Shown here piece after piece: positions 1 to 4,401 of a stretch of DNA of 54,186 bases; the stretch's first letter is position 1, and each line of letters begins with the position of its first letter. Below the pieces are notes generated by a model. It saw nothing but the letters and a program-made list of their open reading frames with translations. It did not search any database and was not told the origin of the DNA. The position numbers and the translations under genes are program-made. The DNA comes from a virus. Its lineage: Duplodnaviria; Caudoviricetes. Location of the stretch: the IMG/VR virus record IMGVR_UViG_3300048786_000038, positions 1 through 54,186 of that record. One strand, 5' to 3'.

Positions 1-23
1 GGAAAAACTCTAATCACTCTCAT
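1..23 (-). CDS. Probable N-terminal fragment (MRVIRVFP) of the radical SAM protein found at the other end of the window
   Basis: ATG at 23 overlaps the TGA of the helicase-methylase gene (ATGA); the radical SAM ORF is open to the window end. Confidence 0.65.
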
Positions 24-2755
24 GTACTGTTAACATCCCTTACCGCTAAGGTAGCGTATACCCGCCGCGCGGGGGTGTCAAAAAGGTCCTGGCCGACAAA
101 ATGGCCCTCGGCATAGCGGCAGTTGTCGGCAGCGATACGGAAATAGCTTTCCTTCAATTCGACCCCGATTCCCTTTCGGCCGAACCGAACCGCCTGATAG
201 ACTTCTGAGCCTATTCCCATGAACGGAGTCAACACCGTCTCCCCGGGATTGGAGTACAGCTTGATGCACCGCTCAATGGCTCCAAGTTGCAGGGGGCAGA
301 TGTGCTTTTCGTCATCGGCGTCGCGGGCCGGGGCATAGCGGAGCACGTCCGACTCCCGGATGCCGAACCAGATGCCGTGAGCCCAGTTGATCCACGTCTC
401 GTTTTCCATGTCGCCATTCTCGACGGGGCGAATCTGGACAGCGTTCTCCCCCGGCTTCTTGAATATCAATATCTGGTCGATGATGGCAGGCCGGGAGTGA
501 GAGGAATCCTTGCGGAGTTGAGCGAATAGGAGCGCCTTGCTCTTGATGCGGATCGCTTGCGCCTGAGGATTCTTCTGGATGAACGCGCGACCGACAAACA
601 CCCAGCCCTCCCGCTCATAGGCGCGTATCACTTCCCCGGGGAAATCGCGCATGCCGATGTAGCCGTCTTTCACTTCCATCGCGGGGATGTCAGAGGAATG
701 GACGCACGTCAAGCGGCCGGGCTTTGTCACGCGGAGCACTTCGCGGATGATGAAGGCATAGTGCTGGAAAAACTCCCCCCAGTCCTTCGAGTTTCCCAGA
801 TCGTGCTCGCTGTTCGTGTAGGTGTAGAGGTCCGCGAACGGTGGGGAGTACACTGAAAGGTCGATGCTGTTCTCGGACAGCTTCGGAAGCTCTTGGCACG
901 AATCCCCGTTGATCGCTCGGAAGTTTGCGCCCGTCACTTCCTCATAGAACGCCGATTCCGCCTGCTTTACTTCGTCGCCCATGTTCAATTCCCGCCTTTC
1001 GTAGATTGCGATATTGCGCAGCAGCTCGCTGGTCATCAGCTTCGCCACGCGCTCCTTGCGTTTCACGTTCTCCCATATCTCCTGCTCGGCTGCCGACATG
1101 ATGATGAACACGTTGACCGGGTGTTTCTGCCCGTAGCGCCATTCTCGGCGGATGCACTGGTAGTACGATTCCCATGAATCGTTCATGCCGAAGAAGATCA
1201 TATTGTGAGCTGATTGAAGATTTAGGCCCCATCCGCATATTTTCGGTTTACTTAGAAGAATTGAAGTCTCTCCGTCGATGAACTGTTCTATTCTTTTTTC
1301 TTTCTCTCCGATAGGCAACTCGCCATAAACGGACGAATAATCCTTGATTATTCCCTCAATCGCTTCTTGCTCAGAATTGAGGCCGCACCAAATCACCCAC
1401 CGAGATATTTTATCGCTTTCATTAGCAATTTCGGATTGTCCTTGAACGATCCCAGTCCGAAGTTGCAATTCACGCAGAGCAACCCCCGTATCTTCTTTGT
1501 GTTGTGGCAATGATCCACATAGGGCTTTTCCATTTCCTGATTGCAGATGGCGCATTTCCCCTTCTGTTGATCCAGCATAGACCGGAACTCCTGCGCTGTT
1601 ATCCCATAGAGTCGCATTCTCTGATTTTGTCTTCTCTCTGGATTTTCCTTCTGCCACTTCTTGACTTGCGCCCTCGCTTCCACCCTGCGCCATTCGTCCC
1701 GAGCGTACAATTCCCTTCTCCGTTCGTTTACCTTCGCCTGTTGCTCCGGAGTCCTCTTCCACTTTTCCAAGTGAGATTGCCTGTACGCCTTCATGTATTC
1801 CGATTTGCTCATGCCGATTATTATACGCTTTGGAATTAATAATATCAAGCACTTTGCCGAGACGGTCGGGAATCGTTGAGCGTCTGACATTTGTCCTGTC
1901 CGTGATACCGGATAGCTTCGAGTGAAAAAGCTCCCCCTCAGGCACGTAGTCAGATTCGACGACTATCGGCGTGATGGTGAGTTTCGGAAGTATGTAGCCT
2001 TCATCGGAATAACCCAGCTCGGACGGCCGCGCCATCGCCACGGCCCACGATGCCATCCACTCGTAGAACGGACCGCGTGCATGATTCTTCAACCGCCATT
2101 CCTGGCCCTGCTTGTTGCTATGCTTCTTGCGCGTGATTGAGCCGTCCTGTTCCTCTCGCTCGTCCTGCTTGTTGGCGTGGATGAAAAACATGGCAAGCAT
2201 TTCCGCGCTCTTGCAGATGCCGAGAAACTCGGCGTGATTTCCGATCTCGCTTTGATCATTAGGTGCCGGGGTAGCCGTGCAGCAGAGGCGATATTTCACC
2301 GTGGCGCACCGCTCGGTCAAGAGTTTTCGCGTCACCCCGCCGATGGATTTCAGGATGGACGATTCATCGAGAACGACCGCTCCGAATTGCGAGAAGTCAA
2401 GCGCGTCGATCATTTCATAGTTGCAGATCGAAAACGGTCCCGACACGTCGGCCATGCTTCGGATGTACTTGATCTCAATTCCGATCTTTGCTCCCTCGCG
2501 GATCGTCTGCCGTGTCACAGACAACGGGGCGATGATGAGCGTGCGCTCGCCAAGAAGGCGAGCCCATTCAAGCTGGATGAAGGTTTTTCCCAGGCCCGTA
2601 TCGAGAAAGATTGCCGCGCGCCCCTTGTGACACGCCCACCGCACTATGTCACGCTGGAAAGGGTAGAGCATGGAATTGACCTGCTCGTCGGAGATCTCGA
2701 TTCCCGCGTACTCCGCTCGTGCCTTCTTTGACTGCAAAAACTCGGTGTATGTCAC
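20..2755 (-). CDS. SNF2-like helicase fused to an N4/N6 DNA methyltransferase, with a ~150 aa insertion
   Basis: Helicase motifs DTGLGKT, LDESS, TATP, GLNLQ; MTase motifs SPPF, HICPLQL, TPFMGIGS; GTG at 2755 overlaps the upstream stop. Confidence 0.85.
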   Translation of the reverse strand: MTYTEFLQSKKARAEYAGIEISDEQVNSMLYPFQRDIVRWACHKGRAAIFLDTGLGKTFIQLEWARLLGERTLIIAPLSVTRQTIREGAKIGIEIKYIRSMADVSGPFSICNYEMIDALDFSQFGAVVLDESSILKSIGGVTRKLLTERCATVKYRLCCTATPAPNDQSEIGNHAEFLGICKSAEMLAMFFIHANKQDEREEQDGSITRKKHSNKQGQEWRLKNHARGPFYEWMASWAVAMARPSELGYSDEGYILPKLTITPIVVESDYVPEGELFHSKLSGITDRTNVRRSTIPDRLGKVLDIINSKAYNNRHEQIGIHEGVQAISLGKVEEDSGATGEGKRTEKGIVRSGRMAQGGSEGASQEVAEGKSREKTKSENATLWDNSAGVPVYAGSTEGEMRHLQSGNGKALCGSLPQHKEDTGVALRELQLRTGIVQGQSEIANESDKISRWVIWCGLNSEQEAIEGIIKDYSSVYGELPIGEKEKRIEQFIDGETSILLSKPKICGWGLNLQSAHNMIFFGMNDSWESYYQCIRREWRYGQKHPVNVFIIMSAAEQEIWENVKRKERVAKLMTSELLRNIAIYERRELNMGDEVKQAESAFYEEVTGANFRAINGDSCQELPKLSENSIDLSVYSPPFADLYTYTNSEHDLGNSKDWGEFFQHYAFIIREVLRVTKPGRLTCVHSSDIPAMEVKDGYIGMRDFPGEVIRAYEREGWVFVGRAFIQKNPQAQAIRIKSKALLFAQLRKDSSHSRPAIIDQILIFKKPGENAVQIRPVENGDMENETWINWAHGIWFGIRESDVLRYAPARDADDEKHICPLQLGAIERCIKLYSNPGETVLTPFMGIGSEVYQAVRFGRKGIGVELKESYFRIAADNCRYAEGHFVGQDLFDTPARRVYATLAVRDVNST
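1393..1812 (-). CDS. Endonuclease VII-family (His-Me) nuclease overprinted inside the helicase gene
   Basis: YGIT...QKGKCAIC...VDHCH..KKIRGLLCVNCNFGLG motif; promoter directly upstream; lower GC. Confidence 0.9.
   Translation of the reverse strand: MSKSEYMKAYRQSHLEKWKRTPEQQAKVNERRRELYARDEWRRVEARAQVKKWQKENPERRQNQRMRLYGITAQEFRSMLDQQKGKCAICNQEMEKPYVDHCHNTKKIRGLLCVNCNFGLGSFKDNPKLLMKAIKYLGG
1820..1848 (-). promoter_or_regulatory. sigma70-type promoter, leaderless, for the endonuclease VII ORF
   Basis: TTGATA-17-TATAAT-7 nt-ATG(1812). Confidence 0.8.
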
Positions 2756-4401
2756 GATACAAGCTCCCTTTCGCGCACGCCTTCTTCGATCTGCTTGCGC
2801 TTCCACCAGACCCAGCCGGGCTTGTAGCCCTTCTGCCGCGCAATCTCATGCAGCAGCGTCACGTTCACCGTAAGGCGCGGCGCATCGCGCTCGACCAGAT
2901 GCCAGTATACCCACATCGGCGCGCGCCCCAATTCCTCGGCCACGCGCAACAACTCCCCCACGGGCCCTTGGGCGATTCGCGGGGGATCCTCGGTGAGTGC
3001 CGAAAGCCATGCGTCGGTTGCCGCGCCTATGCGGTCCTGCACGTCACGGCGTTCCTCGGGGGCAAGGGTCGTCCACGCCTTCGGGGCCGTTCGCTCGACA
3101 AGCGGGACGTCGAGCTCCATGACCTCCTGCTCCTCTACGGGCAGAAGCTTACATCGCCCCTTGCATGCGGGGTCGCGGCAATACTCGCCGTCACGGTAGG
3201 GGCAGAAGCGCATGGCATCGGTGGGCTCGGCACGCTCGCGCTTTTCGGTGCCCGTGAAGTTCCATTGGATATCGGGGACGAAAAACAGAGGCACCCCGGG
3301 GTATCGCGGATCGGTATGCGCTTTAATCATGTTCGCGTGGTCGATGAAAAACGCCTCCCGCTTGCCCGCGAAAGGGCGTAGCAGGCGGCCGACCATCTGA
3401 AAGTACAGCGCGCGCGATAGCGTCGGGCGGATACTTGCGCCGTATTCGAGGTTCGGGATATCGACGCCGTACGTGGCAAGGTCGCAATTGACAAGGCCGT
3501 CGATGTGCTCCTCACGCATCGCGCGGAAGGCGAAATCGCGGTCGCCCTTCGGCATGTCGCCCCAAATCGCGCGGAAGTTGTATCCCGCGTCGTTGAAGGC
3601 GGCGGCCGTTTCCTTTGCGCTTTTCACACTTCGCGTGAAGATCAGCGCGGGGCGATTGCCTCCGTTCTCCCGCACGCCGTACTTGCGATAGAACTTGATG
3701 ACGTTGCCGTAGATCACTCGCTTATTGCGGTCGATGAAAGCCTCGTATTCCGCCTCTATGACCTCGGTGCCGCGCCAGTGCAGCTTGTCGAATCCCTCGA
3801 TAGGAGGTGGGGCAAAGTAGCGCAGGGGTGCAAGGAAATCGCGCTCGGTGAGCCACGGGATCGACGGCCCGTAGTGGATGCACTCATAGGGTCCGCCGAT
3901 GTTCACGCCGTCCACCATGAGGATGCCAAGCCCGCGGCCATCCAAACGCTCAGGGGTAGCGGTCAGCCCGATCACTTTCAGCGCGGGTTTCTCTGCGGAT
4001 GCGGTGTCGATGATGAGCGCCTGAGCGTCGTAGTACAGGTGCGCCTCGTCGAATATCAGCACATCGGGCCAACGCTTGATGCGATGCAGGCGCCGCAGGA
4101 GCGTGTCCTTCGATACGATATGCACGCGGAAGGCGCGCGACTCCTCCTTGCCTGCCGCGATGATGCCGTGCGGGATTTTCCAGCGTGCGAAATGCTTGCT
4201 TGCCTGCTTCAAGAGCTCGTTACGCGGGACGACAAACCAGATCACGCGCTCGGCCGAAAGGCCCATCGCCAGTGACACTATCTCCGCGACTTCCGCCGTT
4301 TTCCCGCCCCCCGTGGGTAGCTGGTGCAGGACGGAGCGATGCTCGCGGATCAGCGGGCGCAACTCGGCTATGTCGGTGGCCTGGTAGTCGCGGAGGCTCA
4401 T
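2752..4401 (-). CDS. SF2 DEAH-box helicase
   Basis: LRDYQ Q-motif, PTGGGKT, DEAH, LTATPER, QMVGRLLR; C-terminal KGYKPGWVW. Confidence 0.9.
   Translation of the reverse strand: MSLRDYQATDIAELRPLIREHRSVLHQLPTGGGKTAEVAEIVSLAMGLSAERVIWFVVPRNELLKQASKHFARWKIPHGIIAAGKEESRAFRVHIVSKDTLLRRLHRIKRWPDVLIFDEAHLYYDAQALIIDTASAEKPALKVIGLTATPERLDGRGLGILMVDGVNIGGPYECIHYGPSIPWLTERDFLAPLRYFAPPPIEGFDKLHWRGTEVIEAEYEAFIDRNKRVIYGNVIKFYRKYGVRENGGNRPALIFTRSVKSAKETAAAFNDAGYNFRAIWGDMPKGDRDFAFRAMREEHIDGLVNCDLATYGVDIPNLEYGASIRPTLSRALYFQMVGRLLRPFAGKREAFFIDHANMIKAHTDPRYPGVPLFFVPDIQWNFTGTEKRERAEPTDAMRFCPYRDGEYCRDPACKGRCKLLPVEEQEVMELDVPLVERTAPKAWTTLAPEERRDVQDRIGAATDAWLSALTEDPPRIAQGPVGELLRVAEELGRAPMWVYWHLVERDAPRLTVNVTLLHEIARQKGYKPGWVWWKRKQIEEGVRERELVS

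What the first reader, a model, noticed from the sequence alone, without database searches (positions are those of the whole stretch)
1190..1900. Endonuclease VII overprinted inside a helicase gene whose frame stays open, with no intron or intein
Seen: the helicase-MTase frame runs without a stop through a ~150-codon atypical insert between ...LDIINS and WVIWC.... The +1 frame of that insert is a complete EndoVII-type nuclease (1812-1393). The host codons at the left edge (LDIINSKAYN) also spell TTGATA-17-TATAAT, 7 nt before the nuclease ATG. Low GC extends ~200 nt past the nuclease stop, like a co-conversion tract. Keeping the host frame open requires avoiding T-ending codons before AA/AG/GA-starting codons, which is demanding in a K/E/R-rich protein. 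Inference: a homing-type element that spares its host by being read as a tolerated loop between the two RecA domains.
Basis: partly seen in the sequence, partly recalled or inferred. Interest (0 to 1): 0.88.

Follow-up and report, generated by a model that had tools for sequence, protein, structure and literature searches.

The report
Nuclease gene nested inside helicase gene
A selfish DNA-cutting enzyme gene sits in a shifted reading frame inside a phage helicase gene whose own frame is kept free of stop codons, so the helicase can still be made in one piece; the trick was first described in 2025 and turns out here to be widespread.

Summary
The window is a complete 54-kb peat phage. Its 928-aa Snf2-like helicase/N6-N4 methylase gene (20..2806, minus strand) carries about 140 extra codons that four close relatives lack. 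In frame +1 these encode an intact endonuclease VII (DHHRN, F-CphI-type) homing nuclease (1393..1812). No intron, intein or unusual RNA structure was detected. An 11/12 sigma-70 promoter ends 7 nt before the ATG. A tract of about 200 nt downstream is foreign to the host allele. Synonymous reshuffling keeps the helicase frame open in only 0.2-0.5% of trials. The decisive evidence is comparative. Of the 80 nearest nuclease relatives in metagenomes, 53 sit at this same helicase site: 46 with the host frame open (two different phases) and 7 with the helicase split in two. The open frame beats synonymous reshuffling (P<0.05) in 32 of 34 non-redundant open loci. Gordonia phages Malisha and Squiddly share a 1-kb, 98-100% identical block around the nuclease, in helicases otherwise 81-87% identical. 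The principle was published in 2025 (ShiLan domain; Pacc40 gp60) with HNH nucleases. This is therefore a new, large member family, not a new kind. Read-through and function of the loop-bearing helicase remain inferred.

The parts
20..2806 (-). Host gene: Snf2-like SF2 helicase fused to an N6/N4 DNA methylase, 928 aa, one uninterrupted frame
   Evidence: ORF list. Pfam Helicase_C, N6_N4_Mtase, weak SNF2-rel. A profile of 55 relatives matches Sulfolobus Snf2/Rad54 1z63, lobe 2 of DDM1/ISWI/INO80, and methylase 2zie.
1853..2806 (-). Helicase lobe 1 plus the region up to the insertion site; native host sequence
   Evidence: 0.71-0.93 nt identity to L003 in most 15-codon bins.
1813..1852 (-). Left junction: host-frame codons VLDIINSKAYNNR, diverged from insert-free alleles, which also spell the nuclease promoter
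   Evidence: nt identity to L003/L004 is 0.47 and 0.33 in these bins; alignment.
1820..1848 (-). Promoter-like site TTGATA-17-TATAAT; the -10 ends 7 nt before the nuclease ATG (geometry of a leaderless transcript; no Shine-Dalgarno)
   Evidence: Scan gives 11 of 12. The same TATAAT-7 nt-ATG layout occurs in relative L192, and a -10-like hexamer lies 5-9 nt before the start in 6 of 41 relatives.
1393..1812 (-). Endonuclease VII-type (DHHRN / F-CphI-like) homing endonuclease gene, 139 aa, in host frame +1
   Evidence: PF02945 at E 1e-22. T4 endonuclease VII 1e7d at E 1.4e-4. 50% identity to F-CphI over residues 47-137. CxxC, D100, H101, H103, R109, CxxCN117 are invariant in alignment A1.
1402..1620 (-). 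Catalytic endonuclease VII domain (C-terminal half of the nuclease)
   Evidence: Whole-record search with PF02945: 81.8 bits, no stops inside.
1406..1825 (-). Net insertion relative to insert-free alleles (about 140 host-frame codons, G/E/S/K-rich, no Pfam match)
   Evidence: Alignment with L003-L006. No Pfam hit at E<=1. ILVFMWYC fraction 0.20 against 0.35 in the flanks.
1393..1405 (-). Right junction: the last codons and the TGA stop of the nuclease are made of the host codons S-R-W-V-I of the conserved W-x-I-W motif
   Evidence: Junction print-out; the same layout occurs in L153. The empty-site consensus is conserved on this side only.
1199..1405 (-). Co-conversion-like tract: helicase lobe 2 codons from a lower-GC, diverged donor allele
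   Evidence: nt identity to L003/L004 is 0.38-0.57 (0.69 in the last bin) while L003 against L004 stays at 0.51-0.87. Identity returns to 0.91 from 1198 on. In two bins the window is closer to L007 (0.60-0.69). GC is 0.38-0.47.

Best explanation
The insert is a free-standing homing endonuclease gene of the endonuclease VII (DHHRN, F-CphI-like) family. It has homed into the junction between the two RecA lobes of a phage Snf2-like helicase-methylase gene. It has neither a ribozyme nor a splicing domain. Instead it is inserted as a multiple of three bases, and its codons are chosen so that the host frame, one base out of step, contains no stop. Ribosomes translating the helicase would then read straight through and produce about 140 hydrophilic, probably disordered residues as a linker between the lobes (inferred). 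The nuclease is made separately from its own promoter, which is written into the host codons at the left edge. In the window that promoter starts transcription at or next to the ATG, giving a leaderless mRNA (inferred from geometry). The nuclease presumably cuts insert-free alleles at the conserved W-x-I-W coding sequence during co-infection. Repair then copies the element together with flanking helicase sequence (inferred from the tracts). Shown here: the insertion and its boundaries; an intact nuclease; stop depletion in the host frame; recurrence at one site in two phases; a recent transfer with flanks. Inferred: read-through, helicase function with the loop, cleavage specificity, and promoter use.
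For: Window: insert-free alleles at 81% and 79% identity. The nuclease has all catalytic and zinc residues (residue roles from PMC6083498). The host frame stays open in only 0.2-0.5% of synonymous reshuffles. The promoter matches 11/12. The 3' tract is foreign. Family: 53 of the 80 nearest nuclease relatives in metagenomes lie at the same helicase site. Of these, 46 have the host frame open (34 in the window's phase, 12 in the other; 33 of the 46 with both flanks in the contig) and 7 are split. Non-redundant counts are 39 open against 7 split. P(open)<0.05 holds in 23 of 23 loci of the window's phase and in 9 of 11 of the other phase. 78 free-standing relatives in IMG/VR average 10.7 stops per 100 codons in that frame, and only 1 of 78 has none. 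L007 (GC 0.43) keeps a 925-aa host frame open although its nuclease has a premature TAA: 0 of 5000 reshuffles were open. Among 77 close helicase relatives that cover the site, 2 are occupied and both are open. Mobility: Malisha and Squiddly are 98-100% identical over 3110..4130 (the nuclease plus about 280 and 200 nt). Their helicase flanks are 86.6% and 81.2% identical. Own expression signals: TAAACT occurs in the 60 nt upstream of the start in 15 of 41 loci (background 1%), TGnTAnnnT in 13 of 41 (background 2.7%), and an SD-like motif in 19 of 41.
Against: No RNA or protein data show read-through. The RNA-library contigs that match (1453-1688, 1469-1715, 1831-2014) bridge no junction and could be DNA carry-over. 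The structure prediction of the loop-bearing protein did not finish. Seven relatives have the helicase split at this site, so covalent continuity is not strictly required. For the Gordonia phages, L186 and the terminase case L014, the synonymous test is not significant (P 0.51, 0.25, 0.17). The general context effect (observed/expected 0.79) and the 8% of open windows in ordinary genes weaken the single-window statistic. The promoter is a consensus match only. Loci were found through the nuclease, so the open:split ratio is a sample of contigs, not of phage populations. 13 open and 3 split calls rest on one flank only.
Confidence: 0.8

Rival explanations
1. Functional split in disguise. The helicase works as two non-covalently associated halves, or only the downstream half matters. 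The open frame is kept only so that ribosomes reach the lobe 2-methylase part without termination and polarity. The fused loop-bearing protein as such would not be needed.
For: Seven relatives at the same site are true three-gene arrangements: N-half, nuclease, C-half. The C-half start overlaps the nuclease stop, for example L214 ATG 2120 against stop 2127. On the nuclease tree the split forms are scattered among the open ones (4-5 changes, not clustered: 72 of 500 shuffles as low), so the two states interconvert.
Against: In the window no start codon with a ribosome-binding site is evident at the right junction. The C-terminal part can therefore only be made by read-through, which yields the fused protein anyway. 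Open forms outnumber split ones 39 to 7.
Confidence: 0.1
2. The insert is removed after all, by an unrecognised intron (RNA) or an atypical intein (protein), and the open frame is incidental.
For: Endonuclease VII-type genes occur in group I introns of T7-like and other phages (PMC6083498, phylogeny section). They also occur out of frame inside actinophage inteins (bioRxiv 10.1101/2025.01.02.630785, passages). Rfam holds only described families.
Against: Rfam gave nothing intron-like at E<=10. The insert RNA folds worse than its shuffles (z +1.27). The net insertion (about 420 nt) is essentially the nuclease ORF, leaving no room for a ribozyme core or a splicing domain of about 135 aa. The host-frame peptide has no Pfam hit in 3 of 3 lineages. 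An intron would not need an open host frame, yet the frame is under selection. No joined form was seen in the contigs laid, though that is weak.
Confidence: 0.04
3. Neutral accident. The element landed in phase and the frame is open by chance. The helicase may be dead or dispensable, perhaps covered by the neighbouring helicase gene (2752..4401).
For: 15 of 178 arbitrary 140-codon windows in this phage are open in that frame. A second SF2 helicase lies next door. PMC11855218 argues that the ShiLan host methylase is dispensable.
Against: The window's P is 0.002-0.005 given its own protein sequence. 32 of 34 non-redundant relatives are individually significant, in two phases and at GC 0.32-0.64. 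The flanking helicase and methylase motifs are intact and conserved.
Confidence: 0.03

Closest known systems
ShiLan domain / hidden out-of-frame HNH endonuclease in mycobacteriophage DNA methylases (Arsenault, Gosselin & Gogarten, Genes 2025;16:178, PMC11855218; I read the abstract, introduction, results, discussion and legends)
   Same: A homing-type nuclease ORF lies in another frame of an insertion that adds no stop to the host gene. No intron or intein is detectable. Distribution among related alleles is patchy. The insert is predicted to form a loop, and leaderless translation is proposed.
   Different: That element has an HNH nuclease with zinc fingers, not endonuclease VII ('endonuclease VII' occurs 0 times in that paper). 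Its host is the methylase, not the helicase lobe junction. It is reported from actinophages only. The parts I read contain no statistical test of frame openness, no split counterparts and no promoter. Its supplements and repository were not seen.
Pacc40 gp60 insertion (same paper, section 3.6)
   Same: The host is a helicase-methylase fusion 28-34% identical to the window's protein, with an out-of-frame nuclease ORF and an open host frame.
   Different: The insertion lies after the R-P-S-D-I motif, about 70 residues upstream of the window's site. The nested 159-aa ORF is HNH/AP2-like, not endonuclease VII.
[quoted passage not shown]
   Same: The same nuclease family is encoded in a shifted frame of a host-frame-open insertion.
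   Different: There the surrounding insertion is an intein that splices itself out of the protein. Here there is no splicing domain and no room for one.
F-CphI of cyanophage S-PM2, DHHRN family (PMC6083498; abstract and two results sections read)
   Same: 50% identity over the catalytic half. The endonuclease VII motif is C-terminal, and D-H-H-R-N plus two CxxC are present.
   Different: F-CphI is free-standing beside an intron-containing psbA gene. It is not nested inside a translated gene.
Genes-in-pieces: mobE inside nrdA of Aeromonas phage Aeh1 (recalled; Gibb & Edgell 2007 is cited in the bioRxiv passage)
   Same: A free-standing homing nuclease gene inserted inside an essential gene without an intron or intein. 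The seven split relatives (for example L174, L214) are of this type.
   Different: In the window the host frame is not interrupted.

Membership tests
Endonuclease VII-motif homing endonucleases (DHHRN family, F-CphI type) | Endonuclease VII catalytic domain | tested here: met
   PF02945 at E 1e-22, 80 bits against a cut-off of 23.6. T4 endonuclease VII structures match at E 1.4e-4.
Endonuclease VII-motif homing endonucleases (DHHRN family, F-CphI type) | D, H, H, R, N catalytic residues and two CxxC zinc ligands (T4 D40, H41, H43, R54, N62, per PMC6083498) | tested here: met
   C87, C90, D100, H101, H103, R109, C113, C116 and N117 are invariant in 12 of 12 sequences of alignment A1.
Endonuclease VII-motif homing endonucleases (DHHRN family, F-CphI type) | Motif at the C-terminus, as in the endonuclease clade and unlike the resolvase clade | tested here: met
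   The domain covers residues 65-137 of 139. The clade criterion comes from PMC6083498, phylogeny section.
Endonuclease VII-motif homing endonucleases (DHHRN family, F-CphI type) | Site-specific cleavage of the insert-free allele | not testable with these tools
   Only indirect evidence exists: one conserved site in 53 of 80 relatives and an empty-site consensus conserved on the 3' side.
Endonuclease VII-motif homing endonucleases (DHHRN family, F-CphI type) | Mobility signature: presence/absence among close alleles and co-converted flanks | tested here: met
   L003 and L004 lack the insert. Foreign tract at 1199..1405. Malisha and Squiddly share a 1-kb identical block.
Out-of-frame, read-through homing endonuclease insertions (ShiLan-domain type) | The insertion adds no stop to the host frame and its length is a multiple of three | tested here: met
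   928-aa ORF; net +139 codons.
Out-of-frame, read-through homing endonuclease insertions (ShiLan-domain type) | Nuclease encoded in another frame of the same strand | tested here: met
   Host frame +1.
Out-of-frame, read-through homing endonuclease insertions (ShiLan-domain type) | No self-splicing intron or intein | tested here: met
   Rfam found none. RNA folding z = +1.27. No Pfam hit on the host-frame insert at E<=1. A negative computational result is not proof.
Out-of-frame, read-through homing endonuclease insertions (ShiLan-domain type) | HNH-type nuclease, as in the described examples | tested here: not met
   The nuclease belongs to the endonuclease VII family. This concerns the described examples, not the principle.
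Out-of-frame, read-through homing endonuclease insertions (ShiLan-domain type) | Host protein translated through the insert and still functional | not testable with these tools
   Inferred from selection on the frame. The structure job did not finish.
Group I intron with an endonuclease ORF | Ribozyme core | tested here: not met
   No Rfam intron hit in 900..2300 at E<=10. Only about 13 nt of the insertion lie outside the ORF.
Intein | Hint/splicing domain in the host frame, with the nuclease in frame | tested here: not met
   No Pfam hit. The nuclease is out of frame.
Genes-in-pieces (host gene split by a free-standing nuclease gene) | Host gene broken into two ORFs | tested here: not met
   Not met in the window. 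Met in 7 relatives.

The most novel reading that the evidence does not exclude
Read-through nesting is a third, widespread and evolutionarily stable way for homing endonuclease genes to live inside essential genes, beside introns and inteins. One endonuclease VII lineage has specialised on the lobe junction of phage Snf2-like helicases. It has kept the host frame open through roughly 50% protein divergence, and it has changed phase by compensating length changes: 8 nt against 28 or 34 nt between a conserved 5' motif and the first conserved codons. It also switches back and forth with the split-gene state. It carries its own extended -10 promoter (TGnTAAACT) inside host coding sequence, with leaderless or SD-led starts depending on lineage.
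Probability: 0.6. Interest if true: 0.72.

Novelty: new member of a known kind. Interest (0 to 1): 0.62.

Why it matters
Gene callers annotate these loci as one long helicase and miss the nuclease, as in Malisha gp71 and Squiddly gp64. The element class is therefore systematically invisible. The family gives the first quantitative evidence I could find that the host frame of such insertions is held open by selection. The searches behind that statement were made; supplements were not seen. The family also offers a natural series (open in two phases, split, free-standing, decayed nuclease) for asking how a selfish gene becomes harmless to an essential host gene without splicing. It marks a permissive site for large insertions or splitting in Snf2-type ATPases. 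Two cultured Gordonia terrae phages make the idea testable at the bench.

Tried and rejected
It was accepted but had not finished after repeated collection. The 'tolerated loop' therefore has no structural model here.
- RNA evidence: 6 RNA libraries hold 8-22% of the sampled words. Three were laid, and they gave single short contigs inside or beside the insert. There were no joints, no starts and no bridged junctions, so they say nothing about splicing or transcript ends.
- A single-protein scan of IMG/VR with the nuclease found no relative. The alignment query was needed.
- Cultured phages: only Malisha and Squiddly carry close relatives of these nested nucleases.
- GTDB genomes gave only 7 loci. 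The top 3 are MAG contigs at the same helicase site (2 open, 1 split), so no host assignment follows.
- A pairwise search for further recent transfers found only duplicates of the same contigs besides the Gordonia pair.
- Script slips: one search timed out; one search contained one mis-framed control row; one search stopped on an assertion. One search is the valid control.
- The quick tree was replaced by the careful one, whose bootstrap had not fully settled.
- dN/dS per frame was not attempted. The nearest nested relatives are about 50% diverged, and the Gordonia pair differs at 5 sites in the block.
- A frameshift-fusion reading (helicase N-part fused to the nuclease) was considered. No slippery site was looked for, and it is not supported by anything seen.
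Full report
**What is in the window.** The window is a whole IMG/VR virus record of 54,186 bp, rated 100% complete. It has a lambda-type head module: GpA terminase, lambda-family portal, S49 protease and capsid E. On the minus strand, ORF 20..2806 encodes 928 residues without a stop. Pfam finds Helicase_C at residues 489-559 and N6_N4_Mtase at 648-893. A profile of 55 relatives matches the Sulfolobus Snf2/Rad54 helicase with lobe 1, and DDM1, ISWI, INO80 and SWR1 with lobe 2. The host protein is therefore a Snf2-like ATPase fused to a DNA methylase.

Inside this gene, in frame +1, ORF 1393..1812 encodes 139 residues that match Endonuclease_7 (PF02945) at E 1e-22. Across the nuclease ORF the host frame has no stop and the remaining sense frame has eight. 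The promoter-like site TTGATA-17-TATAAT (11/12) at 1848..1820 ends 7 nt before the ATG, with no Shine-Dalgarno between them. GC drops to 0.38-0.47 at 1150-1450 and to about 0.40-0.44 at 1750-1900.

**Boundaries and flanks.** IMG/VR holds four insert-free relatives of the host gene: L003 at 81%, L004 at 79%, L005 at 68% and L006 at 60% identity. The alignment puts a net 139-140 extra codons between ...VLDIINSKA and SRWVIWCGL..., at about 1406..1825. The insertion is thus almost exactly the nuclease ORF, shifted 13 nt upstream. The -10 box and 7 nt come with the element. The last codons and the TGA of the nuclease are made of the host's own S-R-W-V-I codons.

In 15-codon bins, identity to L003 is 0.75-0.93 in most of the gene. 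It falls to 0.38-0.57 between about 1411 and 1245, is 0.69 down to 1199, and is 0.91 from 1198 on. Meanwhile L003 against L004 stays at 0.51-0.87. On the 5' side only about 1852..1838 is diverged. Within the tract the window is closer to L007 in two bins (0.60-0.69). This is the pattern expected from homing with co-conversion from a lower-GC donor allele.

**Not an intron, not an intein.**
- Rfam with permissive filters found nothing intron-like in 900..2300.
- The insert RNA folds slightly worse than its shuffles (z +1.27; 88 of 100 shuffles fold at least as well).
- The host-frame insert peptides of the window, L153 and Malisha have no Pfam match at E<=1 (0 of 3).
- There is no room for a ribozyme core or a splicing domain.

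**Is the open frame more than chance?**
- None of the 31 T-capable codons before AA/AG/GA-starting codons ends in T, against 16 of 88 codons elsewhere.
- Permuting synonymous codons within the nuclease keeps the host frame open in 0.24-0.32% of trials (mean 3.8 stops). Host-gene codon usage gives 0.54% and uniform codons 0.02%. Codon-order shuffling gives 0.08%.
- The other frame behaves as expected (8 stops observed, 8.6 expected).
- As a control, 18 ordinary gene segments of this phage have observed/expected stop ratios of 1.04 and 0.79 in the two frames. 15 of 178 arbitrary 140-codon windows are open in the relevant frame (one search had a mis-framed row).

The window alone is therefore suggestive, at roughly P 0.003-0.01.

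**The family.** Searching phage records with the nuclease showed the same layout in Gordonia phages Malisha and Squiddly. There the annotated 'DNA helicase' CDS runs through an unannotated 176-aa endonuclease VII ORF that lies directly before W-L-L-W-V-G-L-N.

In IMG/VR, 2 of the 80 best nuclease loci are nested in long host ORFs:
- L007 sits at the same helicase site. Its GC is 0.43 and its host ORF is 925 aa.
- L014 sits between the ATPase and nuclease domains of a large terminase.

Among 77 close helicase relatives that cover the site, two are occupied (L092, which is L007's contig, and L153) and both are open.

The metagenome scan was decisive. Of the 80 nearest nuclease relatives, 53 lie between helicase lobe 1 and lobe 2:
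- 46 have the host frame open: 34 in the window's phase and 12 in the other. 33 of the 46 have both flanks in the contig.
- 7 have a split helicase.

At 95% protein identity the counts are 28 and 11 open, 7 split and 23 elsewhere. The synonymous test gives P<0.05 in 23 of 23 loci of the window's phase (mean 6.2 stops expected) and in 9 of 11 of the other phase. The exceptions are Malisha at 0.51 and L186 at 0.25. 78 free-standing relatives average 10.7 and 4.9 stops per 100 codons in the two frames, and only 1 of 78 has none in each. L007 keeps its host frame open (0 of 5000 reshuffles) although its nuclease has a premature TAA. Three MAG contigs from GTDB add two open cases and one split case.

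**Phase, split forms and tree.** A 10-mer, TAAACTGGCA, occurs in 863 kb of fetched DNA only at the 5' end of nested elements. It is read K-L-A in the host frame. It lies 28 or 34 nt before the first conserved nuclease codons in L153 and L007, but 8 nt before them in Malisha. That difference, 2 modulo 3, accounts for the change of phase.

In the split forms the order is N-half, nuclease, C-half, and the C-half start overlaps the nuclease's end. On a careful nuclease tree of 63 rows the four labels need 9 changes, against 31 when shuffled. Six rows were left out because they were too short or broken. The split forms need 4-5 changes and are not clustered. The branch separating helicase-site from free-standing nucleases is weak (70/83). 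Phase and state have therefore changed several times.

**Expression signals.** Among the 41 loci whose start region is in the contig:
- TAAACT lies within 60 nt upstream of the start in 15 (background 1%).
- TGnTAnnnT lies there in 13 (background 2.7%).
- An SD-like motif lies there in 19.
- A -10-like hexamer ends 5-9 nt before the start in 6: the window, Malisha, L184, L192, L206 and L212.

The window's TATAAT-7 nt-ATG recurs in L192. These are consensus matches, not mapped promoters.

**Mobility.** Malisha and Squiddly differ at 10-18% of positions in most of the helicase and methylase genes. They are 98-100% identical from 3110 to 4130, which covers the nuclease ORF (3393..3923) plus about 280 nt upstream and 200 nt downstream. 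In numbers, the nuclease is 99.8% identical against 86.6% and 81.2% for the flanks. This is a recent transfer with flanks. The empty-site consensus of 64 distinct alleles is variable on the 5' side and conserved on the 3' side (CAa|TGG aTn nTn TGG tgc GGn), a plausible recognition sequence.

**Population and RNA data.** 14 DNA runs from peat metagenomes hold at least 96% of the stretch's sampled words. Contigs from RNA libraries cover 1453-1688, 1469-1715 and 1831-2014 without joints. They bridge no junction and may be DNA carry-over.

**Comparison with what is known.** The nuclease belongs to the endonuclease VII-motif homing endonucleases defined by F-CphI (DHHRN family). It is 50% identical to F-CphI over the catalytic half, has all named residues and has the motif at the C-terminus (PMC6083498; abstract and two results sections read).

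The arrangement itself was published in 2025. [quoted passage not shown] It has no intron or intein, and leaderless translation was proposed for it. Pacc40 gp60, a helicase-methylase fusion, has another such insertion (PMC11855218; abstract, introduction, results, discussion and legends read). I fetched Pacc40. Its insertion lies about 70 residues upstream of the window's site and encodes an HNH/AP2-like ORF. [quoted passage not shown]

My searches found no report of an endonuclease VII gene nested in a helicase, no statistical test of frame openness, and no account of the open/split polymorphism.

**Verdict.** It is a new and large member family of a kind described in 2025, not a new kind. 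Still unshown are read-through at the protein level, activity of the loop-bearing helicase, the nuclease's cleavage site and the promoter.

Noticed in passing
L014:519-2801 (host), L014:1358-1921 (nuclease): A 760-aa large terminase (TerL_ATPase 63-235, TerL_nuclease 475-742) stays open through a 187-aa endonuclease VII ORF nested out of frame in the inter-domain linker. This is the same trick in a different essential gene. The synonymous test gives P 0.17 and the codon-order shuffle 0.006.
   Followed up: partly
L007:2348-2977: The nested nuclease of this GC 0.43 phage has one in-frame TAA (2558-2560) where relatives have K-R-T-P-E. It is a decaying nuclease inside a host frame that is still open.
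   Followed up: yes
L116:582-911 and L117:1495-1824: A second, diverged copy (42% identity) of the first 105 residues of the helicase lies just upstream of the full gene, in another frame. It may be a remnant of recombination at the gene's 5' end.
   Followed up: no
window 1217-1236: In DNA run X14 the assembly breaks here, at the outer end of the co-conversion-like tract. Contig depth is 5.4 on the methylase side and 11.9 on the insert side. This may reflect allele mosaicism in the population.
   Followed up: no
window 2752-4401: A second SF2 helicase gene (ResIII, DEAD, Helicase_C; 549 aa) lies directly upstream. Its 3' end overlaps the longest reading of the host ORF by 55 nt. The host gene probably starts further in, since homologues align from T-Y-T-E-F.
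   Followed up: no
L043:2321-2893 and L043:2437-3672: An endonuclease VII ORF in a GC 0.65 contig is overlapped over most of its length by the 5' part of a 411-aa downstream ORF in another frame. It could be chance at this GC or another nested case.
   Followed up: no
L237:2390-2935: A close relative of the Gordonia-type nested nuclease is free-standing, between a DNA methylase gene and a small downstream gene. This shows that the lineage also lives between genes.
   Followed up: partly
L087:3102-7127 (Pacc40 gp60): The published helicase-methylase host carries its out-of-frame HNH/AP2-like ORF at 3866..4345, and by the paper's legend an intein further downstream. This gene family is a hot spot for different selfish insertions.
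   Followed up: partly
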